From positions 64,001 to 128,000 of the IMG/VR virus record IMGVR_UViG_3300045988_163304: DNA of 64,000 nt; one strand, written 5' to 3'. The position numbers and the translations under genes were made by a program. The stretch comes from a virus. Under the pieces are notes generated by a model, which had not been told where the DNA came from, did not search any database, and was given only the letters and a program-made list of their open reading frames with translations. Positions 1 through 64,000 of the stretch are shown piece by piece (the first letter of the stretch is position 1; the number at the start of each line of letters is the position of its first letter).

Positions 1-100
1 TATGTTTGATAAAACAGGATTACTTGGATATAAGGATTCGCCAATCGATGATGGTAAAGATATTTTCTTGAAATTATTTAAAGAAAGGATTATAATATAA
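1..100 (+). CDS. 3' end (or complete 33-codon ORF) of an upstream gene; frame from ATG at 2-4, TAA at 98-100
   Basis: Open frame ending TAA that overlaps the next ATG (TAATG). Confidence 0.3.
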   Translation, partial: MFDKTGLLGYKDSPIDDGKDIFLKLFKERIII

Positions 101-276
101 TGAGTGAATTGCATTGGAATAAATATAATGCGGCTGCAGATTTAGATCCATTCCCAGATATAAGATATCAATGTCCATTATGTTATAAAAGTTTTAAAGA
201 AGAATATGATAAATGTCCCAACTGCGGAAAAGCAATAAAAGGAGAATTACACTATGAAAGGTATCGTTTGGGGTAA
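100..276 (+). CDS. small zinc-ribbon protein with two CxxC pairs (CPLC...CPNC)
   Basis: ATG 100-102, TAA 274-276; four Cys in CxxC-x16-CxxC spacing. Confidence 0.45.
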   Translation: MSELHWNKYNAAADLDPFPDIRYQCPLCYKSFKEEYDKCPNCGKAIKGELHYERYRLG

Positions 277-565
277 TCGTTGGATTTCAGCAGTAAATAA
301 ATTAGATTAGATAGCACTAAAATACGAATATCTCCATATTAGCCCTATTCAAATAATTAAAACTAAAAATGAATATACAATTACTTATGAAAATGGAGAT
401 AATTGGCGAGCTATACGAGGTAATACTAATAGTCGAGGATATAAATGTAATATTTCTTATATTGATCGTGAAATTGCTGATGATATTGTTGATACTATTA
501 TTAAACCTTGTACCACTGATTTTCCTTATCATGGGTTTGAGTATTATTATCCAGAAAAGGACTGA
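254..565 (+). CDS. hypothetical protein with one in-frame TAG at 308-310
   Basis: ATG overlaps the end of the previous gene; 103 codons; TGA stop. Confidence 0.4.
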
Positions 566-637
566 TATAAATAATAAACTTAATAAAAAAATTAAAATAT
601 ATAGGTAGTGATTTAATGAAAGGAGGGTGACTATTCT

Positions 638-2383
638 ATGGAATACCGCCTAAGAGCACCCGAGTTCCCGATATATACACCGGTAGAACAAGTGCTAGTA
701 AATCGTGGAATACCCTACGATTAGATTAATCATTATTTAAACACTACTGATAATGACATTTTAGACCCTCGGTTAATACCGCACTTGGATGAAGGTGCTA
801 AAATGCTTATTAAACATATTTCACAAAATGACAAAGTTCTGATATAGGTAGATAGTGATTGTGATGGATATACGTCTGCCGCATTACTTATGAATTATCT
901 ATATTGTCTATTTCCCAGTTTTGTGAATAATAACATTTCTTATCGTGTCCATATGGGAAAACAGCACGGTATCATTCCAGATACAATTCCAGAAGACGTT
1001 AAATTAGTAATAGCTCCAGATTCAAGCTCAAATGACTATGAAGCTCATGAATATTTAAATCTAAGTGGAGTTGACGTGCTGGTAATAGACCACCATGAAG
1101 CTGATCACATTTCTAAATATGCTTGTGTAATTAATAATTAGTTATGTGATTATCCTACTAAATCATTATCTGGTGTAGCGATGGTCTGGAAATTTTGTTG
1201 CTACATTGATATGTTATTAAAAACTAACCATGCGTAGAAGTTTTTAGATTTAGTAGCTCTTGGATTGGTGGCCGACATGATGGATGTGCGAGATTTTGAA
1301 ACAAGAAGATTAATAGATAAAGGACTTCAACAAATCCGCAATCCTTACTTCAGAGGTGTGATTGATAAAGACCAATTTCATTTTACAAATGAGATTACAC
1401 CTATTGGAGTAGCTTTTTATATTGCTCCATTAATTAACGCGACAACTCGCGTCGGAACGCAAGAAGAAAAGCTCATGCTATTCGAATCAATGCTTGATTT
1501 TCGGGGATACGAACTTGTCCCATCAACAAAACGTGGATGTAAAGGTCAAGCAGAAACGAGAGTAGAACAAGCTTGTCGAAATTGTACCAATATTAAAAGT
1601 AGGCAAACCAAAATTCGAGACAATAGCTTGGAAAAAATTGAATAGATAATCGTAAATCAAAACTTATTGAGTAATAAAATCTTAATCGTTCAATTAGATG
1701 ATTTGATTACTGACCGCAACCTAACTGGATTAATAGCAAATCAATTAATGAGTAAATATCAAAGACCTGTTTTAATCTTAAATAGAATTGAAAATGAAGA
1801 TGGTACAATAACTTGGGAAGGGTCTGGTAGAGGATACGACAAATCTCGATTGAAAGATTTTAGAGGATTTTTAGAAAATAATAAATATGTTATGTACGCC
1901 GAAGGCCATGCAAATGCATTTGGTGTTGGTATTAAAGATGAAGATATTAGCGCATTTATTGTATCTACAAATTCTGCTCTAGACGGTTTTGATTTCACCC
2001 CAATCTATAATGTAGATTTTATCTACAAATCAGATGAGCTGACTCCTGATAAAGTTATTGATATTGCAGGAATGAAAAGCTTATGGGGCCAAGGAGTAGA
2101 AGAAGCTGAAATTGCAGTAGAAGGTATTAAAGTTCATAAAGACAATATACGTATTCTATCGCCAGATAAAAATCCTACTCTAAAGATAATGTTGCCGAAT
2201 GGCATCAATTTTATGAAGTTTAGGTCGTCTGAAGAGGAATATGATAAACTATATTCCGAATTAGGTTATGTGACAATTAATATCGTTGGTGAATGCGAAC
2301 GAAATATTTGGAATAATAAAATTAGTCCTCAAGTTATGATTAAAGATTACGAAATTGTAGATAGGGCAAATTATTATTTTTAA
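638..2383 (+). CDS. RecJ-like DHH/DHHA1 single-strand DNA exonuclease; five in-frame TAGs at 722, 845, 1139, 1235 and 1646
   Basis: RBS AAAGGAGGG then ATG 638. DHH motifs VDSDCDGYTSAALL and DHHEAD, RecJ-like LSGVAMV and LDLVALGLVAD, and DHHA1 GHANAFGV. The three ORF-track fragments share one frame and are joined only by TAG. Confidence 0.8.
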
Positions 2384-2436
2384 TAATTGACACTTATGAC
2401 TAATAGACCAAAAACCTATTAGGAGGAATTACAATT

Positions 2437-3267
2437 ATGAAAAATACTATTTTGAATAAATGGCTGATTGCATTAAGCTGTGTATTAATTATTGGATGCA
2501 GCATTAAAACTGTTGAAGCATCAGTCATTACTCGAAATGCACTTTCGGAAGCTTACATCCCTTCTGAAATGTCTTCTGTGGTAGATCTTACTACTACGAT
2601 TGAGTATAAACAAATTAGAAATATATCTAAAACAGAAGATACACAAGAATTAAGAACACTAATCCAAGAGTGTAAAACATTAAAAGAATCCGCTGAACAA
2701 ATGCTAGTATTGGCTGATAATTTAGGATATACCGATAAACATCCAGTAGTTAAAACAACGACTGCTGAAATTGAACAATTAAATAAATTGATTACAATTT
2801 ATGAAAATCGGTTAGAACAAAAACGTTGGGAAATTCGAATTGAGAAATACCCAACTGCTTCTAGTATTTGGTTATATTTAAGCGATCAAGGATATAGCGA
2901 TGAAATATGTGCCGGTATCCTTGGTAATATAATGGCTGAGGTTGGTGGACATACTTTAGATATTGAACATACTACCAATACCCATCCAGGATATTATGGT
3001 ATATGCCAATGGAGTTTAAAATATAGTAATACTAAAGGTATGAATTTATCTGAACAATGTCAATATTTAGTTGAAACTATTGAAAATGAATTTAATTCAT
3101 TTGGTAGTGAATATAAATCAGGATTTGATTATGATGATTTTATTGAAATGACTGATATTGAAGAAATTGCATTAGCATTTGCTAAATGTTATGAACGCTG
3201 TGGATCAGGTTCTTATGATGTGAGACAATCAAATGCTTTAATCGCTTTTGAATATTTTGCATCTTAA
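2437..3267 (+). CDS. secreted lipoprotein (lipobox LIIGC) with a coiled-coil region and a C-terminal phage-tail-lysozyme-like domain
   Basis: RBS AGGAGG; signal peptide plus Cys lipobox; C-terminal segment CAGILGNIMAEVGG...GYYGICQWS resembles the AGILGN/GxGQW phage tail lysozyme family. Confidence 0.55.
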   Translation: MKNTILNKWLIALSCVLIIGCSIKTVEASVITRNALSEAYIPSEMSSVVDLTTTIEYKQIRNISKTEDTQELRTLIQECKTLKESAEQMLVLADNLGYTDKHPVVKTTTAEIEQLNKLITIYENRLEQKRWEIRIEKYPTASSIWLYLSDQGYSDEICAGILGNIMAEVGGHTLDIEHTTNTHPGYYGICQWSLKYSNTKGMNLSEQCQYLVETIENEFNSFGSEYKSGFDYDDFIEMTDIEEIALAFAKCYERCGSGSYDVRQSNALIAFEYFAS

Positions 3268-3330
3268 TTATATATGGTTATATGGAGAGGTATTTCTCCC
3301 TATAACCCTTATTTTCATTTATGGAGATAA

Positions 3331-3535
3331 TATGACAAAATTTAAATCAGCTTGGGATATTGCTCAAGACTTACATAATTTACTATATAATACAGAAAAA
3401 TCTGGTAATGAGATATACAATGAAGTATTTGAAATTAGTAAAATTTTCGCAGAGACATTCCTTACAACGCCAGAAGATTTCGCTCGGTCGTTTATGGCTC
3501 TGAGAACCGAAATCCAAAATGAAAAAGTGATTTAA
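3331..3535 (+). CDS. hypothetical small protein
   Basis: ATG preceded by GGAGA; 68 codons. Confidence 0.4.
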
Positions 3536-5387: not shown

Positions 5388-5424
5388 ATTATTATAAATA
5401 AAATAAATGAGAAAGAGGTGGATT

Positions 5425-8400
5425 ATGCGACCATATTTTGGCGTACACAACCATACTCACTATTCAAATCTGCGTTTATTAGATTCTATTAATAGACCAG
5501 AAGAGTTGATTAAAACAGCAGAAAAATTAGGATTAAGTGGTATAGCAATTACTGACCACGAATGTTTATCTGCTCATATGGAAGTTAATCAATTTGCAAA
5601 AGATTTTTTAAAAGAGCATCCTGATTTTACTATTGCGTTAGGTAATGAAATCTATTTAACTGATACAAGAGATTGTGGTCAAAAGTATTATCATTTTATT
5701 CTATTGGCAAAAGATGAAATCGGTTATAAAGCATTAAAAGAATTGAGTTCAACTGCTTGGATTAATTCTTATACTGATAGAAAAATGGAACGTGTGCCAA
5801 CACTAAAATCTGAATTAAAAAATGTAATGGCACAATATAAAGGACATGTTATCGCAACAACAGCTTGCATTGGTGGTGAATTAGGTTCTAATTTATATCC
5901 AATGTATGAGGCTGAAGTAGTAGGCGATATACAAACTAAAAGCATTTATTATAATAATGTTGTTAGATTCATTGAATTTTGTATAAATGTTTTTGGTAAA
6001 GACGATTTTTATTTAGAGTGTGCTCCGTCTACCATGAAAGACCAACTTGTAGTAAATCAAAAGATTTATCAAGTAGCAAAAGCATATGATTTAAAAATGG
6101 TAGTTGGAACCGATGCTCATTATTTAACAAAGAAAGATAGACCAATTCATAAGGCTTATTTAAATTCTAAAGATGGCGAACGTGAAGTTGATTCATTCTA
6201 TGAATTCGCTTATGTAATGGATAGTGATGAAGTAGAAGAATTAATGCTACCATATATGGATACTTGGGATAAAAATAAAACTCCTCAAGAAATTATGAAT
6301 TGGATTTTTGATAATACATTAGAAATTCAAAAGAAAATAAAATTTTATTCTCTGGAACGTAAACAACAAATTCCAAGAGTAGAAGTAATTGATTATAAAA
6401 AAGGATTCATTCCAGCAGATTGGCTTGAGAAATATCCTGTTATTTGTTCACTGATTAATAGTGATGATATTCAAGAACGATATTGGGTGAATGAATGTAT
6501 TAAAGCACTGCAAGAAAAACAATTATATGAGAATGAAACATATATATCTCGACTTGAAACTGAAGCTAATGTAATTAAAAATATTGGCGAAAAACTTGAA
6601 GATTGTTTGTTTGCTTATTTTAATGCATTTAAACATTATATTGATTTGTTCTGGGAGTGCGGAAGTATTGTTGGCCCAGGTCGTGGCTCAGCAACTGGTT
6701 TTTTATCTAATTATTTATTGGGAATTACTCAGCTAGATCCAATTCGTTGGGGATTACCATATTGGCGTTTCTTGAACTTAGAGCGCGCAGAGTTGCCTGA
6801 TATTGATATCGATCTTGCGCCAAGCAAACGCCCGGCAATTTTTAGTGCTATTCGTAAAGAGCGGGGAACATTAGGTTTAATTCAAGTTGCAACGTTTGGA
6901 ACTGAAGGAACAAAGCAAGCAATTTTAACTGCTTGTCGTGGTTATAGAAGTGATGATTATCCCAATGGTATTGATGTAGATGAAGCTCAATTTATGTCTT
7001 CATTAATTCCGCAGGAACGTGGATTTTTATGGCCGATGAAAGATGTAGTAAATGGTAATCCTGATAAAGATAGAAAACCAGTAACTACATTTATCCAAAA
7101 GGTAAATCAATATCCTGGTTTATTGGATATTATTGTATACATTGAGGGCATCGTTAATAAACGTTCTTCTCATGCTTCTGGTGTTATTCTATATGGAGAA
7201 GACCCATTTGAAACCGCGTCATTTATGAAAACCCCTAGTGGTGATTTAATTACTTGTTGGGATTTGCATAAGGCTGAAGCCGCCGGAGATACTAAATATG
7301 ACTTCCTGGTAACAGAAGCATGTGATAAAATTATTCAATGTTATAATTTATTAAAAGAGGATAATCAAATTCCTGATATTGGTCTACGTGATTTTTATAA
7401 TAAATATCTTCATCCAGAAGTAATAGATACTTCTGATAAGCGCATTTGGGAACATTTGGCCGCGGGAGATATTCTTGACGTATTCCAATTTTCTACTGGT
7501 GTAGGTTTAGCTATTGCTAAAAAACTGAAACCAAAAGATCCTATGGAAATGACAGCCGCAAATGCTATGATGCGTCTAATGAGTGAAAAGGGCAAAGAAA
7601 GTCAGCAAGATAGATATTATCGAATTCAAAAAGCTGGTATTCAAGTTTTTGATAAAGAAATGAAAGATAATCATTTGCCAGACGAAATGATTGAAAAAAT
7701 GCATAAGCATTGTGATAGATATTATGGATGTTGTCCACTTCAAGAGCAAATGATGGAAATCCTTATGGATGTCGCTGGATTTACATTAGGCGAAGCAAAT
7801 AGCGCGCGTAAAGTTGTTGCTAAAAAACAAATGGCAAAAATTCCTCAATTAAAAGAGCAAGTATTTAGTAAATTTACTAATGAACATAATGCTGAATATT
7901 TTTGGGAAAATGCAATCGCTCCTCAATTGGGATATGCATTTAGTTTAAATCATTCTCTTCCTTACTCATTTGTTGCAATTCAAATGATTTATTTGGCAAT
8001 TAATTTCAATCCTATTTATTGGAATTGTGCTTGTTTGATTGTAAATAGTGGAGCATTAGAAAATGAACCAGAAGAAATGAGCGATGAAGATTATGATTAT
8101 TCTGGCGAAGAATATTGTGGTGTTTCTCCAGAAGATGTAATGGAGAATAAACCAAAAAATAAAAAAGTGGCTAGTACTGATTATGGTAAAATTGCTAAGG
8201 CGATTGGAGATATTCAGTCTGCTGGTATTAAAGTCAGTTTAGCTGATATTAATAAAGCTAAATTTGGATTCGCGCCCGACGTTGAAAACAATCAAATTCT
8301 ATTTGGTTTAAAAGGATTATTGAATGTTGGCGATGATTTGATTAATAATATTATTGCAAATCGTCCATATATATCAGTGAAAGATTTTTATTATCGCATT

Positions 8401-9378
8401 AAGCCAAGTAAGCAAGCAATGATTTCATTGATTAAAAGCGGTGCATTTGATGAAATGATGGACCGTAAAGATTTAATGATTTGGTATATTTGGGAAACAT
8501 GTGATAAAAAATCTCGTTTAACATTACAAAATTTAGCAACTTTAATTCGTTATAATTTATTACCAGAAGATAAAGATGAATATATAATTGCAAGACGAGT
8601 TTACGAATTTAATAGATATTTAAAAGCCGTTTGTAAAGATGGTAATGTGTATAAAGTCGATGAACGAGCAATTAATTTCCTAACTGAAATTGGTTGTGAC
8701 GATTTAATTGGTAGTTGTTACCTCTTAGATTCTAAAGCTTGGGATAAAGTATATCAAAAATATATGGATACATTCCGGGCTTGGATTACAGAGAATAAAG
8801 ATGTTATTTTAAATAAACTAAATAATAAAATATTTAAAGATGATTGGGATAAATATGCATCTAAATCTATTTCTGCGTGGGAGATGGAAGTTTTGTGTTT
8901 CTATTATCATGAGCATGAGTTAGCCCATGTAAATAATAGTAAATATGGATTTGTCGATTTCTTCCATCTACCAGAAGAACCAATTGTTGATAAAGTTTTT
9001 TCTAAGGGTAATAAAACGATTACTATGTATAAATTACACAAGATTTGTGGAACTTGTATTGCTAAAAATAAAACTAAATCAACAGTTACATTACTCACTA
9101 CTTCTGGAGTTGTTGAAGTTAAATTTAGAAAAGAATATTTCTCATTATTTGATAAACAAATTTCAGAAAAACAAGCTGATGGTACTAAAAAAGTAATGGA
9201 AAAAAGCTGGTTTAATCGTGGTAATATGATTGCTGTTCAAGGTATTCGTCAAGGTGATAATTTTATAGCGAAAAAATATGCCAGCTCTGGTGGTCATCAA
9301 TTATATAAAATTGATAAAATTTTAGATAATGGTGATATTGAATTAAAAGATGAAAGATACAATGGAGGATCTAATTAA
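5425..9378 (+). CDS. dnaE: DNA polymerase III alpha subunit (DnaE-type) with an N-terminal PHP domain; no internal TAG
   Basis: PHP motif GVHNHTHYS; palm active site GSATGFLSNYLLGITQLDP...PDIDIDLA; RBS AGAGGTGG. Confidence 0.85.
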   Translation: MRPYFGVHNHTHYSNLRLLDSINRPEELIKTAEKLGLSGIAITDHECLSAHMEVNQFAKDFLKEHPDFTIALGNEIYLTDTRDCGQKYYHFILLAKDEIGYKALKELSSTAWINSYTDRKMERVPTLKSELKNVMAQYKGHVIATTACIGGELGSNLYPMYEAEVVGDIQTKSIYYNNVVRFIEFCINVFGKDDFYLECAPSTMKDQLVVNQKIYQVAKAYDLKMVVGTDAHYLTKKDRPIHKAYLNSKDGEREVDSFYEFAYVMDSDEVEELMLPYMDTWDKNKTPQEIMNWIFDNTLEIQKKIKFYSLERKQQIPRVEVIDYKKGFIPADWLEKYPVICSLINSDDIQERYWVNECIKALQEKQLYENETYISRLETEANVIKNIGEKLEDCLFAYFNAFKHYIDLFWECGSIVGPGRGSATGFLSNYLLGITQLDPIRWGLPYWRFLNLERAELPDIDIDLAPSKRPAIFSAIRKERGTLGLIQVATFGTEGTKQAILTACRGYRSDDYPNGIDVDEAQFMSSLIPQERGFLWPMKDVVNGNPDKDRKPVTTFIQKVNQYPGLLDIIVYIEGIVNKRSSHASGVILYGEDPFETASFMKTPSGDLITCWDLHKAEAAGDTKYDFLVTEACDKIIQCYNLLKEDNQIPDIGLRDFYNKYLHPEVIDTSDKRIWEHLAAGDILDVFQFSTGVGLAIAKKLKPKDPMEMTAANAMMRLMSEKGKESQQDRYYRIQKAGIQVFDKEMKDNHLPDEMIEKMHKHCDRYYGCCPLQEQMMEILMDVAGFTLGEANSARKVVAKKQMAKIPQLKEQVFSKFTNEHNAEYFWENAIAPQLGYAFSLNHSLPYSFVAIQMIYLAINFNPIYWNCACLIVNSGALENEPEEMSDEDYDYSGEEYCGVSPEDVMENKPKNKKVASTDYGKIAKAIGDIQSAGIKVSLADINKAKFGFAPDVENNQILFGLKGLLNVGDDLINNIIANRPYISVKDFYYRIKPSKQAMISLIKSGAFDEMMDRKDLMIWYIWETCDKKSRLTLQNLATLIRYNLLPEDKDEYIIARRVYEFNRYLKAVCKDGNVYKVDERAINFLTEIGCDDLIGSCYLLDSKAWDKVYQKYMDTFRAWITENKDVILNKLNNKIFKDDWDKYASKSISAWEMEVLCFYYHEHELAHVNNSKYGFVDFFHLPEEPIVDKVFSKGNKTITMYKLHKICGTCIAKNKTKSTVTLLTTSGVVEVKFRKEYFSLFDKQISEKQADGTKKVMEKSWFNRGNMIAVQGIRQGDNFIAKKYASSGGHQLYKIDKILDNGDIELKDERYNGGSN

Positions 9379-9988: not shown

Positions 9989-10035
9989 ACACTAAATATA
10001 GTGGATATCCTAATTTTTTCCACTATATTTAGTGC
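9989..10035 (+). promoter_or_regulatory. tandem NrdR-box-like operator pair (two 16-bp boxes, 31 bp start to start) overlapping the nrdD promoter and RBS
   Basis: acactaaatatagtgg (9989-10004) and ccactatatttagtgc (10020-10035) match the NrdR consensus acaCwAtATaTwGtgt at 14/16 and 13/16. Together they also form a perfect 16-bp inverted repeat. Confidence 0.5.
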
Positions 10036-10046
10036 GGAGGTTATAA

Positions 10047-12296
10047 ATGTTTTATATAATTAAACGTAATGGCGATGTAATGCCATTTAACAAACAAAAA
10101 ATTATTGATGCTATTACTAAAGCATTTATTGCTGTAGATAAAAATATTTTTGAATCAGATAGTATTAATAGCATCGCTGATGAAGTAGAATATAGAGCGA
10201 GTCATTTCCCCGATGGAAGCGTTAATGTTGAAGACATCCAAAATTGGATTGAAGAAGCATTAATGGCATCAGAGCGTCCTGATATTGCTCGTGCTTATAT
10301 TCGCTATAGATATAAAAAAGAAGTTGCTCGCACTCATTCAACTGAATTTATTGCTGCAATTGGTGAAAAAATTCGTGGAGCTAATATTCAAAATCAAAAT
10401 GCTAATGTTGATGAAGCATCATTTGGTGGGCGTATGGGTGAAGCTAATAGTCTCTTAATGAAGCAATATGCTCTTGATTATATCGTATCTCCTCGTACAA
10501 AACGTAATCATGAAGAGAATATGATTTATACCCATGACCTTGACCATTATGCTGTGGGTGACCATAACTGTTTATCAATTCCATTTGATGATTTGCTTGC
10601 TAATGGATTTAATACTCGTCAAACAGATGTGCGTCCAGCAGGTTCAGTAAACACAGCATTTCAATTAGTTGCAGTTATTTTTCAATTACAATCTCTTCAG
10701 TAGTTTGGTGGAGTGAGTGCTACTCATCTTGATTGGACTATGGTTCCCTATGTTAAAAAGAGTTTTAGAAAACATTTTAAAGCATATTTAACTGATGTTG
10801 ATGATTATAGTGAAGGTATGGCTCTACAAATTATGAGTGATTGTGAGCCTATTGAAATTTCTAATAAAGAATTGCAAAGTCAATTTGGTCATCAAAATGC
10901 TTATAATTATGCTCTAAAACAGATAGAAAAAGAAATCCATCAAGCAGTTGAAGGTATGTATCATAATTTAAATACTCTTCAAAGTCGTAGTGGTAATCAA
11001 CTTCCATTTACTTCTATTAACTATGGAACTTGTACTCTTCCAGAAGGAAGAATGATTACAAAAGCCATATTAGAAGTGTCTCTTGAAGGATTAGGTAAAT
11101 TACATAAAACTTCTATTTTCCCTTGTGGAATTTTCCAATGTATGAAAGGTGTTAATAGAGAACCAGGTGACCCGAATTATGATTTATTTAAACTTGCGTT
11201 AAAATCTACTGCTAAAAGATTATATCCTAATTATGCAAATGTTGATTGGTCTGGAAATGCTGGCTATGATATTAATGACCCACGCACCTATTTTAGCACA
11301 ATGGGATGCCGAACTGCTAATGGATATGATATTAACGGTTTAGGTCAATTAAAAGATGGCCGTGGCAATATTTGTCCGGTAACTATTATTATGCCTACAC
11401 TAGCTATGATGGCAAAAGAAGCAGCTGAAAATAGTGATTTTCAATTAACTCCAAAAGCTGCTAGGATTAGAAGTTTTATGACTTTACTTGATGAAAAAAT
11501 CCATGAGGCAAAAGATCAATTAATTGAACGTTTTAATTGGATTTGCTCTCAAAGTCCGGCTTCAGCTAAATTCATGTATGAAAACAATCTAATGGCAGGT
11601 TATATTCCCGAAGAAGGAATTAGAAGTGCGCTTAAACATGGAACACTGGCTCTAGGTCAGTTAGGACTAGCAGAAACTCTACAAATTCTTATTGGCGTTG
11701 ACCACACTACTCCAGAGGGAATGGAATTAGCAAAAAAAATTGAATCCTTATTTAAACAGCGTTGTGCGGAATTTAAGGAACAATATAAATTAAACTTCGG
11801 TGTTTATTATACTCCCGCAGAAAATCTCTGTTATACTGCAATGAAGAAATTTAAGGCTAAATACGGCGAAATTCCTAATGTAAGTGATAAAGAATTTTTT
11901 ACTAATTCAATTCATGTTCCTGTATGGAAAGAAATGAGCCCATTTGATAAAATTGATATTGAGAGTCAATTAACTGGATATAGTAATGCCGGTTGTATTA
12001 CTTATGTTGAGTTAGATTCTACTGTATCTAATAACTTAACTGCTCTTGAGCAAATTGTAAATTATGCTATGGATAAAGATATTCCTTATTTTGCTGTAAA
12101 TGTTCCTAATGACACTTGTCTCAAGTGTGGATATACTGGTGAATTCAATGATAAATGTCCAGAATGTGGTAGTAAAGAAATTCAGCAACTTCGTCGTGTG
12201 ACCGGTTATTTAACTGGTAATTATAAAACTGCGTTTAATTTAGGAAAGCAAGATGAAGTTGAACATCGAGTCAAACATGTAGGAGTGATGGAATGA
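10047..12296 (+). CDS. nrdD: anaerobic ribonucleoside-triphosphate reductase NrdD; one in-frame TAG at 10704
   Basis: LNTLQSRSGNQLPFTSINYGT; C-terminal Zn ribbon CLKCGY...CPECG and glycyl-radical RVTGY. The two ORF fragments share one frame. Confidence 0.85.
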
Positions 12297-17854: not shown

Positions 17855-17878
17855 TTTCTAGAAAATACCTCGCTTTCC

Positions 17879-18074: not shown

Positions 18075-18103
18075 ACAGAAAATAGAAGAGGAGGAAATAA
18101 TTT

Positions 18104-44005: not shown

Positions 44006-44022
44006 TGATACATACCCGCCTT

Positions 44023-51300: not shown

Positions 51301-51322
51301 ATTTTTCTCTCTCCTTTATCTC

Positions 51323-54352: not shown

Positions 54353-57300
54353 TTAAATAGTCTTTCGACTAGCATATTGACTTGCTTCGTTCTCCATCAT
54401 TTCAAATGCTTCCATAATTTCATTACTATCAGTCACATTCGGGAAATCAGCATTAATAGAAATTTGTTGCATAAACTCTTGTGCAATTCTATCAATACCA
54501 AGAGAAGAAGGAGTTAAATTAGATAAATAATTTACAATAGTCTAAACATTTAACCCTATACTTTGTAAAATACTTGAAACATCTAAACTATCAATTAATG
54601 CAGTATCAATTGTTAATTCATTATTCTGCATCTATTCATCTATCTATTTACTCATATCTAATCTATCAAATATATCATAAGTTAAGGGGAAAGATTGTTC
54701 TGTAACATAATCAGTATTACTAAAACTTCTAGAATTATGTTGCGTGCTAATAATATTATTATCTGTCGTGGTTAACTGAGAATTTGTCTTTTGATTATAT
54801 TTACTATAATCAATATTATCCATACCAGATAATAATGCAACCATTTTATTAAGACTCGCTACAAGAGCCTCATTTCTATCAATAGCACTATTAATTTTTT
54901 TAGTATAAATATCTTCCCATCTACCAGCCGCTTCAATAACATCTTTAAAGGAATTGGTAGCGTTTTTAACTATGCCATCCATATCAGCTAATGCTTTATT
55001 AGAATCACCAGTAATCTTAATAGACCAACCAGAAGCTTCGCTAGCAAAATCGCCTTTAATACCAGCGGTTTGATTTATTTCATCCTATTTTTTACTTAAA
55101 TCATCTAATAATTTCATTGAATCATTTAATACAGTATCATGATTATCCCAGAAACGTTTAAACATTTCATCTAATGATTCATATCCACCCTTAATTGCTA
55201 AATTAGTTTTTTCAAACGTGTCTTTAATATTATCGGTATTAACCTAATAATATGAAGTAAATTTCGCTGTTGCGTCTTGGCTATTTCCAAATAACTTTTT
55301 GTATTCCCCTTCAAGATATTGCATCTTGTTTAAATACCAATCATTTAAACTAGCAATTTGCGCTTCGGCCTCTTCTTTTGTTAATTCGCCATCAGCTAAA
55401 CCTAATTCTATTTCTTTAAGTTTTTCTTTATAATCAGCCTATACTTGAAGAATATTACTTTCAAGAGTTTTTAGGTATTCTTCATTTGCTTTTTGATAAG
55501 CATTTAATTTATCTTCATATTCCTATTCAGCTTGAGCAATTTTATCTTCATCCGCGCTATATACATATCCCCAATTACCATTATTATCGCGAGTTAAACG
55601 AACAGTTTCATTAGAATTTTGAACATCTTCTAATTTCTATCTTGCTAATTCTAATTCATATTTAGATTGCAAAATTTTCAAATCATATTCACTAATTTGA
55701 GAACCATCTTTTAATTTTTTATTTAACTCATCCTGTAATTTATTCAATGCTTGTTTATGCGCGATAATATCAGTATCTTCTATAGAACCTTCAATCTAAC
55801 GTCTTAATTTATTTAATTCATAAGTTTTATCAGTATCACTTAAATATTGTTCATTAATTTCATTAGCCTATTCAATAGCTTCTTGTAATGCATCAATGGT
55901 GCCTTGAATAGGAGCAATACCTTTTTCAAATTCTTGGATAATGTTATCCATTTCTTCATCAAAGATATCTTTTGCTCTCTATAGAGCTTCTTGCCAACTA
56001 TCTAAGAAACTTTCTTCTACACCATTAATTTTATCATCAATTTCTTGTAAGGTTTTATCCCATTTCTTAATAGCTTGTTCATCGCCGTTAGCTGCTACTT
56101 TATCACGCTCAGCTTGAGCATCAGCGCGCATCTATTTCAATGCTTCTAATTCTTTTTTAGTCCCAGCTAAATTATTAATACTGTTATTCATTAATGAACG
56201 ATTTAAATTGCGAATTACTATTTTAGACTGTTCTCCCAACTACATTCCTAGTAATGATGTAATATCTTTAACACCTTCTAAAATATTTTGATAATGATCA
56301 AATAATTCAATTTGATGCTCGATATCTTCACTGAATTGATTGAAACTATCTAATACTTTTTCTTGAATTGTATTACGCATTTCAAGTAATTCTTGATTAC
56401 TAGATAATAATTCTGAACGCCAGTCTCTTAATTGCTCAATTTCTTTAGCAGTAAATCCTTTAGCTTTTAAATCAGCTTCAGACATTCCCTCTAATTCTTC
56501 TATTGAATCAATACCATGATTATTTAATAATTCCATTAATCCTTTTTGATAAGTAGTAATTTTATCAAGAGTATTCTAAGTTTTATCACCAATTAAAACT
56601 ATAGCCTCAGCCGCTGAATAAGCTTCATCTTCAATTTTACTTAATAAATAATCAAGATATTCTAATTCATCATCTTTAACAGCAATTTTAATTTCAATTT
56701 TATATTGAGTTTTTTCAAAAATTACATCAGCTAATTCAGTCTTTAAATCATATAATTTTTCTAATTGCTCTTGGCGCAAATTATTAGTTTCTTCATACTA
56801 TTCTAAAGCTTTAATAAAATCATCATAAGCATCTTCAGCGGCATCATCAGCATCTTCATTTTTACCAATAGACGAATTATATTTATCAATCTGGCGCTTC
56901 ATAATTTCATCATAATTAGTAATAGCACCAGTTTCATCAAATTCAGCGCCATAAGATGCAATTAAAGCTCTATCTTCATCCCAATATTTATTAATTTCAT
57001 CAAGATATTGATTCTATAAATCAATCATTTCATCATATTTTTCAATTTCTTGATCCATTAATTCTAATTTAGAAGTGCCAAACGCCCGCTCTTTAGCTTT
57101 CGCTAAATGCTCCATTACCTCTTCTAAATCTTCAATTTTTTGCTTAATTACATGATAACGCTCAATTTCATCTTTATATTCTTTTGGGGGAGGAGGAGTA
57201 TATGAACTTCCACCACCGCCTCCATTACCACCATCGCCACCATTTCCTCCAATGGTTCCAGAAGATTTTGTGCCTCCAGTGACTTCACCACCCATTTCTA

Positions 57301-60300
57301 AGCCACCACCAGTTACAGCCTTAACTGCTGCGGGGTATTCAATTACGTCTTCTCCATCTAAAGATTTAATAAAAACTCCGCCTGGAACATGATGGGTACC
57401 ATCAACGGTATCAGTTTCATTAGTGGCTACTAATGTATCAAAATGTTTTTTAGTCACTTGAGGTTCGACAGGATTTAACTCTAAATTAAATCCCATTTTA
57501 GCGAATTCTTTTTGTGCTTGTTCAGATGTCCATCCACTAGCTGCAATTATTTTATTACAAGCATCAATAAATCCAGCATCATTAACTTCTGCTCCGACTT
57601 CAATCGGATTGTTTTCTATGTAATTAGAAATATAATCAAAAGCATTTTGAACGTCTGATTCAACTGTTCCGGCCGCAGCACCTGCAGATTCTTCTAATTG
57701 GGCCATTGCTGAACGGGCTTTAGTATTATTAACATCTAAAACAATTTGACGCTATGCTTCCACTCTAAATTGTTGAACAGCTTTAGTATCGCCCTTCATC
57801 ATTTTAGGAATTAGTGGACCAGATTTTCTAATAAAATCTTTATTATGAGCAAGCATCTAATCAAATGTATCTTGACTTACTCCAGCTAAAGAAGCAAAAC
57901 TGTCAGAATTAGCATCTAAAAAATCCCCGAAAGATTCATATTCGGCTTCTGTTAAATCTTTATTTTTTTCTAATTTTTCAATATATTTATTTAATTCTTT
58001 ACTATTATCATTCCAAGCATCCTAAATATCTTTAATAGTACCAATATTAAGACCAGTTAATTTTCGTAATTCATTTACAGCTTCAGCGTCTCCTTCAACT
58101 GCTTTCTTAATTAAATCATAATGTTCAATAATATTATCACTATCACTAATCCATTCTTCGAAACCTTCTTTAGTCATGTCAAACATAGAAGCATATTCTT
58201 CAGAATTCTATTTTAACATATCTGACATAGCTTGAGCTTTTTCTTTTAACTAATCTTGATAATTATTATAAGCCGCTTGATAATCTTCTGTATTATCAAA
58301 AGAATCTTCGTTTGGAGTTCCCTGTTGATTTATTTGTTCAAATTCATTTACAGTTGATTGATTTTTATCCCAAGTTTCTTTTGCCTTAGAAGCATTTTCC
58401 CAAGTTGTTTTACTATCAGCTTCTATTCCTACATAATCATCAATATTAGCCACAGTATCTTCAGAGGCTAATTTATTTTCTAGCCAAGCTCGTAACTCTG
58501 AAACAGAAATATTTTTAGTCTCTTTCTAATCTTCATCTGTATATACTTCAATAGTTTTATCATTCTATAATTTAGATAAATTACCCCAAAAATTATTATC
58601 TTTATAAGTATATCCTCTCTCTTTTAAAAACTCTTGAATATTTTCATTTGAATTATTTAAAACATTAAAAGCAGTAGCAGACTAGTCGGTATAATCTGTA
58701 GCATTAGAATTACGGACTGCATCTTCAGCCATTTTATAAGCAATATCAGAGACATATTCATCACTAACTCCTGCCTCTTTTAAATCTTCTAAAATCCCTT
58801 CAGAAACCATTTTATTATACATATCATTAGTTTCTGTGTCAGCAATTCGTTGTGCCTATACAGTCAATTCTTTAATAGCATCTTGTAATTCAGTATTATT
58901 ATCAATTAAATCAATAACACTCTAATCTAAACCTAAATCTTTTAATGTATCAGAATCAATTTCTAAGTTTGGATTACGTAATTTAGCATTAATAATAGTG
59001 TCTAGATCTTTAGAAGTAATCTATTCTACATCATTATCATAATGGGTCTATCCGTGTTTAGTATAATCAGAAACAATTTCTTTTTTGCTCTAATCATATT
59101 CATATTTATCTTTAAATTTCTATTGAGCAGCTTTTGCTGATAATAAATTAGAACGTTCTTCATCCATTGAAGTACGCATAGTCTCCGCGCCAGTGTCTGT
59201 AATATACTTACGCCCCTGAGCATCAATATCCCAGTCCTATCCTTTTATTAAACCATATTTTTCAATTAAATCATCAACTTCATCATTTAACTCATTAACA
59301 GCATCTCGCCATTCTATAGTTCCATAAGTGAGATTATCAATATTTTTACGTTTATCATTTAACCCAGATAAAGTACTATTTAATGTATTTAATCTACTAT
59401 TTACATCATCTAAAGCAGTTTTAGTTTCTTCTAAATTTTTATTATTCTATTCAGCGTTTTCAGCTGCTGCTCCAGTAGCATTGTCATATATCGCCCAAGC
59501 CGCTACCAAAGCTCCTAAAGCTACAATTAAAGGCCAAATAGTAGCTAAAACTGGAACAATATTTAACCATAGACCTTTTAGAGCTGTAGAAAAAGCATTA
59601 GTTGTTACCGCCGCCTTTCCTGCTACAATAGCTTCAGCTTGCAATGCTGTAGTTTCAGTAACTACTCCTCCCGCTGCTAAAACTGCTTGGATAGCATTCT
59701 TTTTAAAAGCATCATTTAATTTTTTACTAGCTAATATATTATCTATTTTCTTTTTTTGATTCTGGGTTAATACTATTGTATTAGCCCCTATTGCTACATT
59801 TTCTAAAGAAAGTGTAAGAAATTGTTTCTAGGACTATTGTTGTAAAAAAGCATTAGCAGTACCTAATCCTCGTAAAACACTAGACACCCCAGGAACAATC
59901 ATAGAAATACTAAATAAAACAGATGTAAATTTTTCCCATCCAGAAATATCAGGATCAGATAATGTTTGCATCATAGAATTAAATGATTGTAATGCCATTG
60001 CAGCAGAACCACAAGCAGAAGCCAATGATATTATACTCTAAGTGAAAGGTATTTTATGAATTGGTTTAAAATTAATAACTGCTTGATTGAGTCCTTCTTG
60101 TGCTTCTTTTGCTTCTTTAGTAGCCTATCCCCACTATTTTAATGCTTTACTATGCGCCTAAATATCACCTTTAGCCTATTCCATTGATTTACTTGTTGAA
60201 CGACCCATTTGTTCTAAAGCATTAGCCGCATTTTTTCCTTCAACAGTAGTATTTTTTAGAACTTCTGCTAACTGCTTAAAAGCCTAACTTACTTCTTTTG

Positions 60301-62650
60301 GCTTTCCTCCATCTAATGCACTTTCAATAGCTTCTAAAGCATTTTGAAAATCTTTTGAAGATTTTGTGACTTCATCTACTGGGCCAATAAGCATATCAAT
60401 AGAAGTTCGAACCGTTTCAAAATCAATTTCACCATTTAATTTAGTATACTAAGTCCCTAATTTTTTAAGTCCTTCAATTGTTAAAGAGTATAAATCATTT
60501 CCTGATAATAAAGTTTCATTTGTTTCATGCCCAACTTCAATAAAAGTTTTATAAGTATTTGTTAATTTTTCAACTGTTTGTGCTAATTGAGACGCTGCCT
60601 GTTCCTGAATATCTAATTTATCATTCTAGAAAAAAGCTAAATCATTTCTAGCAGCGACTAAATCTGCCTAATTATTTTCAGATGGATTATTACGATATAA
60701 CTACTAAGCTTTATCTTTATTAGCTTTTAACTTCTGTAAATAACTAGTACCATAATCATAAATTTGATTAGGAGCATTTAAATCAATAGGATTAGTATCT
60801 TTATTTAATTGTTCTCGTAATTTAATTAATTTTACTGTTTCCTACTATTGTTTTTCAATAAATTGAATTTCATTTTCATAATATCTTTTTTCACTAATAG
60901 ATAAATTTTCAGATACGGTTGCTAATTTATTTTTTACTCCTAATAATTCCTAAGAATTTTTTAATTCCTATTCTTGAGCTGGAGTAAAATTAGTTCTTGT
61001 CTCTAACTATAATTTAATATTATCAGAAGTTTCTTTAGATATTTTAGCATAAACTTTATCTGCTCCACCTACTAAAATTTGAATATTATTTATTGCATTA
61101 TCTAAAGCTGGCTAAATTTTAGAGCTTAATGTCTAACCAATTAATGATAAAAATCCTAATAATAAAGGTTTAATTCCACCAATTTTATCAATAAAAGAAT
61201 CAACCCCATCAACCATATCAGATAAGAAATCTGTAAATTTAATAAAAAATTTATCATCAATTAAATCAGTATATAAAGATTCAAAAGAAGCTTTTAAACG
61301 TTTATTAGCAGCTTCCCAAGACTCTTCATAAATTTTCTATTGTTCAGTTAATGTTCCAGTAGCATTACGAGCAGTTTCGAGATTTTCTTTCATAAAATCC
61401 CAATTATCCATTAATGCCATTAATTGCGTATATTGACGAACACCAGCAACGGTTTGAGCCAATGCTACTTTAGCATCTTTAGAAATTAATGGATTACCTT
61501 CAGCATCAAATGAATTCCACTTTTCACCTAAATCACTAAGGATATCATCCATCTCTCGCAATCCGCCATCTGCTGTTTTAATAGAAACACCAACAGTTTC
61601 AAGAGCTTGAGAATATTTGCCTAATGTAGTACCATCATCAAGAGTTTTACCTAATTCTAAATCTTGAATACGAGCAAATAATGTTTTGAATGCAGTACCA
61701 ACTACATCAGCAGATTGACGAGTCGTTGCGGTTACAGTCGCTAAAGCTGAAGTAGCATATTCATAACTTAAACCTACTGTATTAGACACAGCTGCAAATT
61801 TTTCTAATCCAGCCGCAATTTCATCTGTGCTGGAAGCTGTTGCTGCACCTAATGCAGTCATAACATCAGCGTAATATTCTAATGATTGTGAGCCATCATA
61901 GAAGTTATTCCAAACAGCAGTCAATTGGTCTGATATTTTATCAGCACTTTCACCAGCGGCATTAGCCATTTTAATCGTAACAGCAGTTCTATCTTCTACT
62001 TCTTTATCTGATAAACCCTGTTGATAGTAAATCAAAGAAGCATCAGTATAATTTAATGTAGAAGTGCTTAATGCCTTTGCTGCTTTATTTGCTCTATCAG
62101 CAAATTTATCCATATAGTCAATATTATGACCAGTAACAATTCGGATATCATTTAATGAACTATTTAAATTCTAAGCGTAATGATAAGCTCCTTGCAAAGC
62201 CCCCATTACACCATGAATCATACTTGAAGAAATTTGCCATTTAACTGTATTTTTAACAGTAGTTAAAAAATCTTGTAAACGAGCATTTAATGTAATCATT
62301 GGCTAATCAGCCGCCGCTATTGATTGAGCTAATTTTATAAATGCTTGTTGTCCAGTTGTTCCCGCTTGAAGTAAACTGGTAGATAATTCAGTCACATTAG
62401 TTTTTGATTTAGCTAAACTAGCATTTAATTTACTTAAATCATAATTACCAGTTTTCTAATTATATGCTTCATTTAAATGAATAGCTAGCTCTTTAGCCGC
62501 AGTAGAAGCTGCTTTCATTTGACTGGGATCAATACCTAAATCAGTACTATATGCTACTTTAGTTAATAACTACTGCAATTCCTAAATCTGCTATTTCGCT
62601 TGAGTAGTATTCGCAGTAAAATCTAATGCAACATTTAATTGTTTTGCCAT
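54353..62650 (-). CDS. tail tape measure protein, ~2765 aa, dozens of in-frame TAGs
   Basis: All nine track ORFs here sit in frame 2 (54644 ... 61337). TP901-type TMP core (61337-62113 fragment), TM helices at 59447-59644 and a Gly-rich linker. RBS AAAGGAG; TAA at 54353. Confidence 0.75.
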
Positions 62651-62689
62651 AAACGGGACTCCTTTCTCTCATAATATAAACAAAAAAAA

Positions 62690-62728
62690 TGGGTGTGAGA
62701 AATAATCTTCTCACACCCATACACTTGA
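62690..62728 (-). terminator. hairpin plus T-run between the 62766-63290 gene and the TMP start (possible attenuator)
   Basis: gggtgtgagaa / ttctcacaccc with T8 on the minus strand. Confidence 0.45.
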
Positions 62729-62765
62729 TTATTCCTATTTAATTTTAAAAAATTAAATAGTTTAA

Positions 62766-63290
62766 TTATCCCAACTTGGTCAAAACATCTTTTAGCAATC
62801 CTAATGTTTCAGGATTCTGAATGTCATTAGTTAATTGTTCCATATCAAATGTTGTATCTTTATAATCCGTAGAAATAATATCTAAAATACCCGCCGCAGA
62901 ATTTTTATACTCATAAATTGAATGAATAGTTTCTGCCACCCAACTTTTAATTTGTGCATATTCTCCTGGATTAATTTCTCCAAATACCTTAGCAGAAAAA
63001 CCAGAACCTACTACTAAATCATATAATTTCTTTGGGTCTTCTTTTTGTTTATCAGTAAAACTTACATTTGTATATGCCATAATCATTTTTAAAATAGTAT
63101 GAAGATATACACGAGCAGGGTTATAATAACCGTTTTTATCAATGGAATCATTAATGATTTCTGAAATAAGATTTAACTTATCTCCAATAGGAAGATAATC
63201 TTTGACTTCAATAATCTAATCTCCCCATTCAAAGGTTGATACTTCTGTATTTTTATTTAAATTTAACTTTGAAAATGATACTTTTGCCAT
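62766..63290 (-). CDS. tail protein upstream of the TMP (assembly chaperone or tube protein); one TAG
   Basis: RBS AAAAGGAGG; 175 codons. Confidence 0.45.
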
Positions 63291-63319
63291 TTCAAAATCC
63301 TCCTTTTACACTTATTTAT

Positions 63320-63348
63320 ATTATACTAAAAATTTAGTTTATTGTCAA
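63320..63348 (-). promoter_or_regulatory. perfect-consensus sigma70 promoter on the minus strand (TTGACA, 17 nt, TATAAT) driving the tail operon
   Basis: -35 at 63348-63343 and -10 at 63325-63320 read on the minus strand. Confidence 0.55.
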
Positions 63349-63352
63349 TTTT

Positions 63353-64000
63353 TATTTCGATATTTTTAAAATATTTAATAATTTATCAACAGCTTTTTCT
63401 GCCGTCTCTTCCATAGCTGCTTCAGTTTCAAATTTTGCTTTATTTAAAAACAATTTAGAAATCTTTTCTTGATATGATGCTTTATCAATTAATCCTCCAG
63501 AAATAATATCTTTTATAATTTTTAATTGCTAATAAATTGTATTATAATCATATAAATCTGCACGATTTGCTTTAATACTAGTGTTTGTAAAAGGATTATC
63601 ACCACCCTATGAAGCAATAATATTGTCATAGGCTAATGCAGTACCAAAAACATCATTTTTAATCTATTGATCATCAATCTATTTTTCTAATTCTATCTAA
63701 TGAGAAATAGCAATATCCAATGCTTCAAAAATATGGCCTTGATTAAAGAACTAATACTAACGAGGATTTTTTTTCTATTTTAATCCAGAGTTACGATTTC
63801 CATATTCTTGCATAATTGATTTTCTTACAATATATCCGTATTTTCCTAAAGAAGTAAAATAATCATTTTTTTCATTTTTCGCTGGAACATATTTATTAAA
63901 ATATTTTGTCATTAATTCGCTGTATTTTGCATTAATTGCATCATTATTCTATTTTAATAAAGTAGGATTTAATTGTAATGCCATTTTACCAAATTTCACA
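63353..64000 (-). CDS. tail protein (tube or major tail candidate), partial at the window edge; about nine TAGs
   Basis: Explicit translation gives a continuous protein ending ...AVDKLLNILKISK-TAA; the frame is open to the window edge. Confidence 0.4.

What the first reader, a model, noticed from the sequence alone, without database searches (positions are those of the whole stretch)
1..64000. No suppressor tRNA or release-factor gene in 64 kb
Every intergenic gap was scanned: 17855-18103, 21050-21218, 23513-23628, 34703-34843 and the terminator regions. None shows a tRNA-like cloverleaf or T-loop (GTTCRA) signature. No protein resembles RF1, RF2 or a tRNA synthetase. The recoding machinery is either elsewhere in the genome or supplied by the host.
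Basis: inference. Interest (0 to 1): 0.5.

Follow-up and report, generated by a model that had tools for sequence, protein, structure and literature searches.

The report
Amber suppressor tRNA lies outside window
This 64-kb piece of a gut phage that reads the stop codon TAG as glutamine really contains no tRNA or release-factor gene, because near-identical complete genomes carry the suppressor tRNA about 43 kb upstream of the window; this is the usual arrangement for such phages.

Summary
ARAGORN, Rfam (even at E<=10), Pfam on 30 ORFs and six-frame tblastn with RF1/RF2/GlnRS find no tRNA, release factor or synthetase in the window. One sub-threshold "tRNA(CUA)" call (26979-27045) is noise. The recoding premise also holds: 241 in-frame TAGs in 28 of 36 ORFs, and at conserved sites they align with Gln.

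The window is about one third of a ~198-kb phage genome. Sister assemblies (94-96% nt identical, collinear) were walked all the way round as a composite. They carry a ~16-kb array of 28 tRNA genes 40-55 kb upstream of window base 1, on the same strand as the replication genes. The array holds one canonical tRNA(CUA) (Rfam 55 bits). That tRNA is identical, or one base different, in the ten sister assemblies that cover the site. No RF1, RF2 or GlnRS homologue occurs anywhere in the composite genome, so charging and termination are presumably left to host enzymes.

This is the known code-15 phage pattern in an uncatalogued lineage distantly related to phAss-1. Interest is low.

The parts
1..64000 (.). 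Whole window: no tRNA, tmRNA, release-factor or aminoacyl-tRNA-synthetase gene. About one third of a ~198-kb TAG-recoded phage genome (replication module on the + strand, tail/structural module on the - strand).
   Evidence: RNA; protein; relation to 166-198-kb sister contigs
620..2383 (+). RecJ-like DHH exonuclease with 5 in-frame TAGs. The TAG at residue 174 aligns only with Gln (46) or TAG (12) in relatives.
5407..9378 (+). DnaE-type DNA polymerase III alpha, 1,323 aa, with no TAG among its 45 Gln codons. It is translatable under the standard code and was used as the anchor for finding relatives.
9990..10034 (+). Perfect 16-bp hairpin in the 72-nt gap upstream of nrdD. In phAss-1 this is the position of two tRNA-Sup(CUA) genes and a tRNA-Leu; here there is no tRNA.
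10047..12296 (+). Anaerobic ribonucleotide reductase NrdD with one in-frame TAG (residue 219), which aligns with Gln (24) or TAG (12) in all relatives.
12263..12787 (+). NrdG activase. One TAG sits just after the last Cys of the radical-SAM Cys motif (CEGC-X) and aligns with Gln (18) or His (18).
26540..34729 (-). Giant tail-associated ORF of 2,729 codons stop-to-stop, 2,720 aa from the first ATG. It has 15 in-frame TAGs in the stop-to-stop frame, 14 of them after the first ATG.
26979..27045 (-). Sub-threshold ARAGORN call 'tRNA(cta)'. Rejected: poor cloverleaf, inside coding sequence, not seen by Rfam at E<=10, and calls at this threshold also arise in shuffled sequence.
44002..51315 (-). Giant structural ORF of 2,437 codons with 60 in-frame TAGs; TAG makes up 52% of its Gln-type codons.
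54353..62668 (-). Probable tape-measure protein, assigned from its size, coiled-coil composition and position in the tail module (no family search was run on it). 2,771 codons with 59 in-frame TAGs.
17855..18103 (.).
21050..21218 (.).
23513..23628 (.).
34703..34843 (.).

Best explanation
The window is a 64-kb internal piece of a ~198-kb tailed phage from the human gut that reads TAG as glutamine (code 15). It holds no recoding machinery because of where it was cut. In the complete genome a single amber-suppressor tRNA(CUA) sits in a ~16-kb array of about 28 tRNA genes, 40-55 kb upstream of the window and on the same strand as the replication genes.

Proposed sequence of events (inferred, following the Borges et al. 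model). A 38-54% GC early region containing no TAG at all is translated first under the host's standard code. The tRNA array is then transcribed. The suppressor is charged with Gln by a host enzyme, since the phage encodes no synthetase. It competes with host RF1 at TAG, since the phage encodes no release factor. This allows full-length translation of the TAG-containing replication-accessory and structural genes that fill the window.

Shown here: absence from the window; TAG read as sense and best matched by Gln; presence, position and conservation of the tRNA(CUA) in sister genomes; absence of RF and GlnRS homologues. Inferred: presence in this exact genome; Gln charging by the host; the temporal order.
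For: Absence in the window. Recoding: (241 in-frame TAGs in 20,254 codons, 30% of Gln-type codons, 28 of 36 ORFs; every ORF ends in TAA or TGA). TAG = Gln: (NrdD site 219: 24 Q and 12 TAG; RecJ site 174: 46 Q and 12 TAG; Q is the majority at 6 of 20 well-aligned sites against a 3% background). Sister genomes: (94-96% nt identity, collinear from window base 1; two 197.6-kb contigs with different break points imply a complete circular or permuted genome). Suppressor tRNA: ARAGORN at L171:1469-1542; Rfam tRNA 55 bits, E=7e-9; clean cloverleaf, CUCUAAA anticodon loop, GGTTCGAATCC T-arm, encoded CCA, U1.U72 and G73. An exact-match scan finds it in 5 IMG/VR sister contigs and it is also in 5 ENA assemblies. 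It is 100% identical or differs by one variable-loop base, while the genomes differ by 4-6%. Position: 43,446 nt upstream of window base 1 on contig 160359 (from the coordinates). ARAGORN positive control. No RF, GlnRS or other aaRS: and the precomputed Pfam tables. Composite closure of the genome. Code-neutral early region: (42 genes: 27 TAA, 15 TGA, 0 TAG stops, no internal TAG). TAG-free DnaE, and TAG-free DnaB and primase in the sister loci. Literature: phAss-1 relatives carry tRNA-Sup-CTA and no synthetase (PMC10607447); RF2 and aaRS are rare in TAG-recoded phages (bioRxiv 10.1101/2021.08.26.457843).
Against: The window's own contig was not found by exact DNA or exact protein look-up, so the tRNA's presence in this strain is extrapolated from relatives 4-6% divergent, and the array is mosaic between strains. 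Whole-genome coverage is a composite of several assemblies at 84-100% identity, so a strain-specific RF or aaRS insertion cannot be excluded. Outside the window the RF and aaRS search relied on tblastn with E. coli RF1, RF2 and GlnRS plus precomputed Pfam for only part of the genes; other synthetases and non-homologous factors were not searched. The Gln identity of the tRNA is not established from its sequence: overall identity does not single out tRNA-Gln. TAG-containing genes include some replication genes, so the early/late division is not clean.
Confidence: 0.85

Rival explanations
1. This particular strain, unlike its sisters, has lost the suppressor tRNA. It depends entirely on a host amber-suppressor tRNA or a host with a TAG-reassigned code, or on a co-infecting helper phage.
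For: The source contig was not recovered. The tRNA array is mosaic between strains. The literature reports TAG-recoded genomes with no detectable suppressor, about 60% in Borges et al., and two relatives of phAss-1.
Against: All ten sister assemblies that cover the site carry the tRNA, with at most one base difference, which indicates strong purifying selection. The window is 94-96% identical to them and has 241 in-frame TAGs that need decoding. Borges et al. predict that recoded gut-phage clades, other than the code-25 phages, infect standard-code Firmicutes and Bacteroidetes.
Confidence: 0.05
2. A non-canonical suppressor RNA is hidden inside the window, for example a structurally aberrant, intron-containing or split tRNA that standard tools miss.
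For: Borges et al. suggest that non-canonical phage tRNAs may escape detection. The sister genomes do contain an interrupted tRNA-Gln(UUG) that ARAGORN's default mode missed. One sub-threshold CUA call exists at 26979-27045.
Against: Rfam's covariance model, which did detect the interrupted tRNA in the sisters, finds nothing in the window at E<=10. ARAGORN with introns allowed at the default threshold finds nothing. The sub-threshold call lies in coding sequence and such calls also arise in shuffled sequence. The window has no GC-rich non-coding island of the kind that marks the tRNA array; its gaps are 16-28% GC. A canonical suppressor exists elsewhere, so a hidden one is not needed.
Confidence: 0.03
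3. A phage-encoded protein unrelated to RF1, RF2 or known synthetases, in the window or elsewhere, contributes to recoding, for example by inhibiting host RF1 or modifying a host tRNA. On this reading the machinery is more than the tRNA.
For: Many window and early-region ORFs have no family match. Efficient read-through of 59-60 TAGs in a single ORF against host RF1 competition seems demanding. Borges et al. raise this possibility.
Against: There is no positive evidence for such a factor. Suppressor tRNA alone is the accepted minimal mechanism, and most TAG-recoded phages lack RF or aaRS genes.
Confidence: 0.15

Closest known systems
phAss-1 / proposed Phassvirus group (OQ749652; Babkin et al. 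2023, PMC10607447), 'Caudoviricetes code 15 clade'
   Same: A human-gut tailed phage with a DnaE-type polymerase, NrdD/NrdG and dUTPase. TAG is read as Gln in structural genes and some replication genes. It has a large tRNA array (36 tRNAs) that includes tRNA-Sup(CUA), and no dedicated synthetase.
   Different: DnaE is only 42% aa identical and there is no megablast match. The genome is ~198 kb rather than 136 kb. There is one suppressor rather than three. In phAss-1 two suppressors sit directly upstream of nrdD, whereas here that gap holds only a hairpin. The suppressor sequences are only 59-64% identical.
TAG-recoded (code 15) gut phage clades of Borges et al. (Lak, crAss-like, Garnet, Amethyst, Agate and others; bioRxiv 10.1101/2021.08.26.457843)
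   Same: Low-GC genome; in-frame TAG concentrated in structural genes; core replication genes and the early region compatible with the standard code; a phage-encoded suppressor tRNA; no synthetase; charging attributed to host enzymes.
   Different: Membership of any named clade was not tested, because no terminase phylogeny was made. No RF2, unlike some Lak and Agate phages. TAG also occurs in several replication-accessory genes (RecJ, helicase, NrdD, NrdG).
[quoted passage not shown]
   Same: A phage-encoded suppressor tRNA that switches the code during infection.
   Different: Here the tRNA sits in a general tRNA array, not beside the lysis genes. No synthetase or release factor accompanies it. 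The recoded codon is TAG, not TGA.
SPbeta-like Bacillus phages and Enterococcus phages of the VRE9 and H1 type
   Same: YorL-like DnaE polymerase at about 40% aa identity and a similar genome size class.
   Different: Their deposited annotations call the polymerase as a single uninterrupted gene, and the phAss-1 paper reports no stop-codon recoding in the Enterococcus and Enterocloster phages it compared. No further similarity was tested.

Membership tests
Code-15 (TAG->Gln) recoded phage | Essential genes are broken by in-frame TAG under code 11 and restored to full length when TAG is read as sense | tested here: met
   Long-ORF residues rise from 10,026 to 20,134. ORFs of 2,437-2,771 codons carry 59-60 TAGs. 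Recoding TGA or TAA does not yield long ORFs in the same way.
Code-15 (TAG->Gln) recoded phage | In-frame TAG aligns with Gln in homologues | tested here: met
   NrdD site 219: 24 Q and 12 TAG. RecJ site 174: 46 Q and 12 TAG. Q is the majority at 6 of 20 well-aligned sites against a 3% background; variable sites are mixed.
Code-15 (TAG->Gln) recoded phage | TAG is not used as a terminator | tested here: met
   0 of 42 early-region genes called under the standard code in a sister contig end in TAG. The window's ORFs all end in TAA or TGA, but that follows from how they were defined.
Code-15 (TAG->Gln) recoded phage | Genome encodes a tRNA with a CUA anticodon (common but not universal in this class) | tested here: met
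   Absent from the window. Present in all ten sister assemblies covering the array, 43.4 kb upstream of the window's position. Not verifiable for the window's own contig.
Canonical tRNA (Rfam RF00005): window candidate c[26979,27045] | Cloverleaf scoring above Rfam's gathering score or ARAGORN's default threshold | tested here: not met
   No RF00005 hit at E<=10. Called only at 90% of ARAGORN's threshold, has poor stems, and such calls occur in shuffles.
Canonical tRNA (Rfam RF00005): sister-genome suppressor L171:1469-1542 | Cloverleaf scoring above Rfam's gathering score, with a 7-nt anticodon loop and T-loop consensus | tested here: met
   55 bits against a gathering score of 29, E=7e-9. 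ARAGORN default call with 7/5/5-bp stems apart from U1.U72, and GGTTCGAATCC.
Glutamine-accepting suppressor (tRNA-Gln-derived) | tRNA-Gln identity elements (weak 1:72 pair, G73, U35) and descent from a tRNA-Gln gene | tested here: inconclusive
   U1.U72, G73 and U35 are present, and the acceptor stem resembles that of phAss-1 tRNA-Gln(CUG). Overall identity to tRNA-Gln (0.55-0.66) is no higher than to other isotypes. Actual charging cannot be tested with these tools.
Proposed genus Phassvirus (phAss-1, BK046881, BK025033) | High nucleotide identity (80-86% among members) and conserved synteny, with suppressors upstream of nrdD | tested here: not met
   No megablast match. DnaE is 42% aa identical. 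The order of DnaE and nrdD differs and there is no tRNA before nrdD.
Phage 'code-change module' with release factor and/or synthetase (Lak, Agate, Jade types) | Phage-encoded RF1 or RF2 and/or a cognate aaRS | tested here: not met
   No RF-1, PCRF or tRNA-synthetase Pfam domain in 30 window ORFs. tblastn with RF1, RF2 and GlnRS is negative in the window and the composite genome. Precomputed Pfam for the early region is negative.

The most novel reading that the evidence does not exclude
In this lineage glutamine decoding itself may be the switch. The phage's only canonical tRNA-Gln(UUG) gene is interrupted by a conserved ~120-nt insertion in the anticodon loop and sits ~0.9 kb upstream of the amber suppressor. 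TAG has overtaken CAG as the second Gln codon (241 against 53 in the window). An early region of roughly 45 kb, much richer in GC and containing no TAG in the 42 genes checked, precedes the tRNA array. If the insertion is a regulated self-splicing or processed intron of an undescribed small type, or if it inactivates the gene, the phage could tune the Gln-tRNA supply and the code change together. That would go beyond the simple 'suppressor tRNA expressed, late genes read' model.
Probability: 0.1. Interest if true: 0.55.

Novelty: new member of a known kind. Interest (0 to 1): 0.2.

Why it matters
The result mainly shows that a negative finding in a sub-genomic window is an effect of sampling. 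The phage follows the established code-15 pattern of a suppressor tRNA in its own genome with no release factor or synthetase. It adds one more well-resolved example: a ~198-kb lineage absent from the phage catalogue searched here, with a highly conserved single suppressor, a TAG-free early region and TAG-free core replisome genes. That is consistent with the temporal code-switch model. For annotation, contigs of this lineage must be gene-called with table 15, and the tRNA array at 40-55 kb upstream should be expected.

Tried and rejected
1. Exact 48- and 54-nt matches from the window's ends in IMG/VR found nothing. An exact-protein look-up of DnaE also found nothing. The source contig was not recovered.
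2. Megablast of window 1-25000 against catalogued phages gave no match.
3. A search for a dispersed repeat to use as a multi-site anchor found no 15-mer present four or more times. The motif TTTTAACAATCTTRCT proved local to one region.
4. I first thought the array covered 19 amino acids and that the suppressor replaced a missing tRNA-Gln. I retracted this: Rfam detects an interrupted tRNA-Gln(UUG) that ARAGORN missed, and it is conserved in all sisters.
5. Assigning the suppressor's isotype by overall identity to other tRNAs was uninformative, at 0.55-0.72 across isotypes.
6. The pooled TAG-to-residue alignment was swamped by spurious coiled-coil alignments of the probable tape-measure protein. 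I replaced it with a per-site analysis that requires conserved flanks.
7. The relaxed ARAGORN thresholds (ps85, ps80, mitochondrial mode) give dozens of implausible calls and were disregarded.
8. Host identification: the genome-contig scan found only 77%-identity phage-like contigs binned into a 'Mollicutes' MAG and a Clostridium MAG. This is too weak to name a host or its genetic code.
9. The protein-family tool refuses DNA references that contain in-frame TAG, so TAG->Q translations were supplied as letters. The six giant ORFs were not run through Pfam.

Full report
**1. The observation**

The finding is a negative one: no suppressor tRNA, release factor or synthetase in the 64-kb window. 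It holds.

- ARAGORN finds no tRNA or tmRNA at default settings or with introns allowed.
- Rfam finds nothing at gathering thresholds, and its tRNA model gives no hit even at E<=10.
- As a positive control, the same ARAGORN tool recovers all 36 tRNAs of the published phage phAss-1, including its three CUA-anticodon tRNAs.

Lowering ARAGORN's threshold to 90% gives two calls, one with a CUA anticodon at c[26979,27045]. The finding named a tRNA(CUA) as its refuter, so I examined it. It has a 2-bp D stem, a 4-bp T stem without the T-loop consensus and a G.U-rich acceptor stem. It lies inside a 2,729-codon ORF. Dinucleotide-preserving shuffles give 0.4 such calls per window. It is noise.

On the protein side, Pfam scans of 30 ORFs show RecJ, an SF1 helicase, DnaE, a guanylate-kinase-like enzyme, NrdD, NrdG, dUTPase, a tail lysozyme and many unknowns. 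None has an RF-1, PCRF or tRNA-synthetase domain. tblastn with E. coli RF1, RF2 and GlnRS against all six frames gives nothing at E<=10. The six giant structural ORFs were covered by tblastn only.

**2. The premise of recoding**

- Reading TAG as sense doubles the residues in long ORFs, from 10,026 to 20,134, and gives 12 ORFs over 500 aa instead of 3.
- Individual ORFs carry up to 60 in-frame TAGs.
- In 36 ORFs there are 241 TAGs in 20,254 codons. That is 30% of Gln-type codons and 4.5 times as many as CAG. 28 ORFs have at least one.
- At well-aligned sites in homologues from more distant relatives, the window's TAG aligns with Gln or with TAG itself: NrdD site 219 has 24 Q and 12 TAG, and RecJ site 174 has 46 Q and 12 TAG. 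Q is the majority at 6 of 20 sites against a 3% background.
- TAG use differs strongly between genes. DnaE has none among its 45 Gln codons (P about 1e-7 at the average rate).

**3. What the window is**

There is no nucleotide match in the phage catalogue. By DnaE the closest catalogued genome is phAss-1, at 42% aa identity. It is a 136-kb human-gut phage filed in the 'Caudoviricetes code 15 clade'. Its paper reports 36 tRNAs with three tRNA-Sup-CTA and no dedicated synthetase (PMC10607447).

IMG/VR holds contigs whose DnaE is 98-99% identical. At the nucleotide level they are 94-96% identical to the window and collinear from its first base. Two of them are 197,570 and 197,697 bp long with different break points, one of which falls inside the window's region. 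That indicates a complete circular or permuted genome of about 198 kb, so the window is about one third of it.

**4. Walking the rest of the genome**

Loci can be fetched only in +/-10-kb pieces. I walked outward from both ends of the window, using chimeric queries that joined the two frontier proteins so that one scan extended both ends. I then continued through the protein index.

- Upstream of the window lie a primase, a DnaB-like helicase, a RecA-like ATPase, an SSB-like protein, a ligase, topoisomerase II subunits, a lysin, a flotillin-like protein and phosphoesterases. These labels are readings of the translated ORFs; no family search was run on them.
- Downstream lie connector and capsid genes, a prohead protease, the portal and the terminase, identified in the same way.
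- About 127 kb were tRNA-free.
- The next upstream step found a tRNA array containing a tRNA with a CUA anticodon.

**5. The suppressor tRNA**

L171:1469-1542 scores 55 bits on Rfam's tRNA model against a gathering score of 29 (E=7e-9). It folds into a clean cloverleaf with a CUCUAAA anticodon loop, a GGTTCGAATCC T-arm, an encoded CCA, U1.U72 and G73.

From the contig coordinates, its 3' end is 43,446 nt upstream of the position matching window base 1, on the window's + strand.

An exact scan of IMG/VR for its 17-nt anticodon arm returns five sister contigs. Five ENA human-gut assemblies carry it too. In these ten assemblies the tRNA body is either identical or differs by one variable-loop base, while the genomes differ by 4-6%. 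There is exactly one CUA tRNA per genome.

The array runs Trp, Phe, Asn, Leu, Ala, Thr, Leu, Glu, Glu, Asp, Met, Phe, Ser, His, Ile, Arg, Ile, Pro, Arg, Val, split Gln, Sup(CUA), Tyr, Thr, Ser, Leu, Gly, Lys, Cys. It spans about 16 kb, roughly 40-55 kb upstream of the window.

**6. A correction made along the way**

ARAGORN's list lacked tRNA-Gln, and I briefly read the suppressor as filling the Gln slot. Rfam, however, reports a tRNA spanning 194 nt between Val and the suppressor. Its exons match the intact tRNA-Gln(UUG) of a more distant relative, and a ~120-nt insertion sits in the anticodon loop. The split gene is conserved in all sisters with 97.6-100% identical exons. So canonical tRNA-Gln is present, probably with an intron. 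The suppressor's Gln identity rests on the TAG alignments and on weak acceptor-stem resemblance, not on descent.

**7. Release factors and synthetases in the whole genome**

The walk closed the circle as a composite: L240:14,524-16,245 matches L221:1-1,738, which leads into tRNA-Trp. tblastn with RF1, RF2 and GlnRS found only trivial matches (E>=0.056) in every batch. Precomputed Pfam tables for the early region list no RF or aaRS family.

This agrees with the literature. Borges et al. found RF2 in only eight TAG-recoded genomes, found synthetases rarely, and proposed charging by host enzymes.

**8. Mechanism**

- Shown: the code change (TAG to sense, best matched by Gln), a conserved phage-encoded tRNA(CUA) outside the window, and no RF or GlnRS homologue.
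- Also shown: an early region of 38-54% GC whose 42 called genes use no TAG at all, either as a stop (27 TAA, 15 TGA) or internally. The core replisome genes are TAG-free: DnaE in the window, DnaB and primase in the sister loci.
- Inferred: early genes are translated under the host's standard code. The array is then transcribed. The suppressor is charged with Gln by a host enzyme and competes with host RF1. This allows synthesis of the TAG-rich structural proteins that fill window positions 18.9-64 kb.

**9. Verdict**

The explanation is ordinary: the window simply does not include the tRNA array. The lineage is an uncatalogued member of the known class of code-15 gut phages. It is not a member of the proposed genus Phassvirus. 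Interest is low.

The remaining uncertainty is that the window's own contig was not retrieved and that whole-genome coverage is a composite of related strains.

Noticed in passing
L171:360-553 (= L212:9487-9680; sister contigs, about 44.4 kb upstream of window base 1): A tRNA-Gln(UUG) gene interrupted by a ~120-nt insertion in the anticodon loop. Exons are 97.6-100% conserved in ten assemblies. The insertion is shorter in L220 and absent in the more distant relative L218. No Rfam intron family matches, and it is short for a group I intron. A similar insertion interrupts tRNA-Lys in contig 147738 (L175:3123-3306).
   Followed up: partly
L124:1-1950, L176:10455-20454, L230:1-17000, L233, L237, L240:1-16000 (sister assemblies, between the start of the late operon and the tRNA array): An early region of roughly 45 kb at 38-54% GC inside a ~30% GC genome, packed with small genes. 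All 42 genes checked end in TAA or TGA and contain no TAG. So the genome has two compartments that differ in composition and in codon use.
   Followed up: partly
L124:700-1500 (contig 160359, about 22.7-23.5 kb): About 800 nt with no ORF, next to the divergent start of the late operon. It carries three exact copies of TTTTAACAATCTTRCT and looser copies, is conserved at 92-95% in the sisters, and has no Rfam hit. It could be an origin with iterons or a set of promoters for small RNAs.
   Followed up: partly
L218:15873-15964 (ORPK01001570, a relative at about 90% aa identity): This relative carries a different amber suppressor: 92 nt with a long variable arm, resembling phAss-1 Sup1. It sits beside an intact tRNA-Gln(UUG). 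Suppressor type therefore varies within the wider clade.
   Followed up: no
L237:~13538-13596; L212:1568-1623 and 7820-7876; equivalents in L214, L220, L225, L227: A ~57-nt dispersed repeat (85-91% identical copies) occurs in the early region and several times inside the tRNA array. It may be a shared promoter or processing signal.
   Followed up: no
L212:3022-3094 and 4615-4689 (and equivalents): The array includes tRNAs with unusual anticodons, Phe(AAA) and Ile(UAU).
   Followed up: no
L174:1-2500; L209:~1600-6400; L240:17029-19172: Strain-specific insertions of radical-SAM/SPASM-like and methyltransferase genes within or next to the tRNA array, for example about 4.8 kb between tRNA-Ser and tRNA-Leu in contig 140174.
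   Followed up: no
window 18941-21082 (-) and 22523-23557 (-): Two tail-fibre-like ORFs share a conserved C-terminal domain (GAVWNDYAE(F/Y)RE ... GRVL(A/V)YP ... VNGR(V/I)WI). By its sequence alone it may be an intramolecular-chaperone or autoproteolytic domain; no Pfam family matched.
   Followed up: no
window 22454-22546, 34704-34796, 62684-62760: Weak sub-threshold Rfam matches to unrelated RNA families (trpB motif, plastid psbM 3'UTR, several miRNA precursors) at gene boundaries. They probably reflect terminator-type hairpins, but this was not tested.
   Followed up: no
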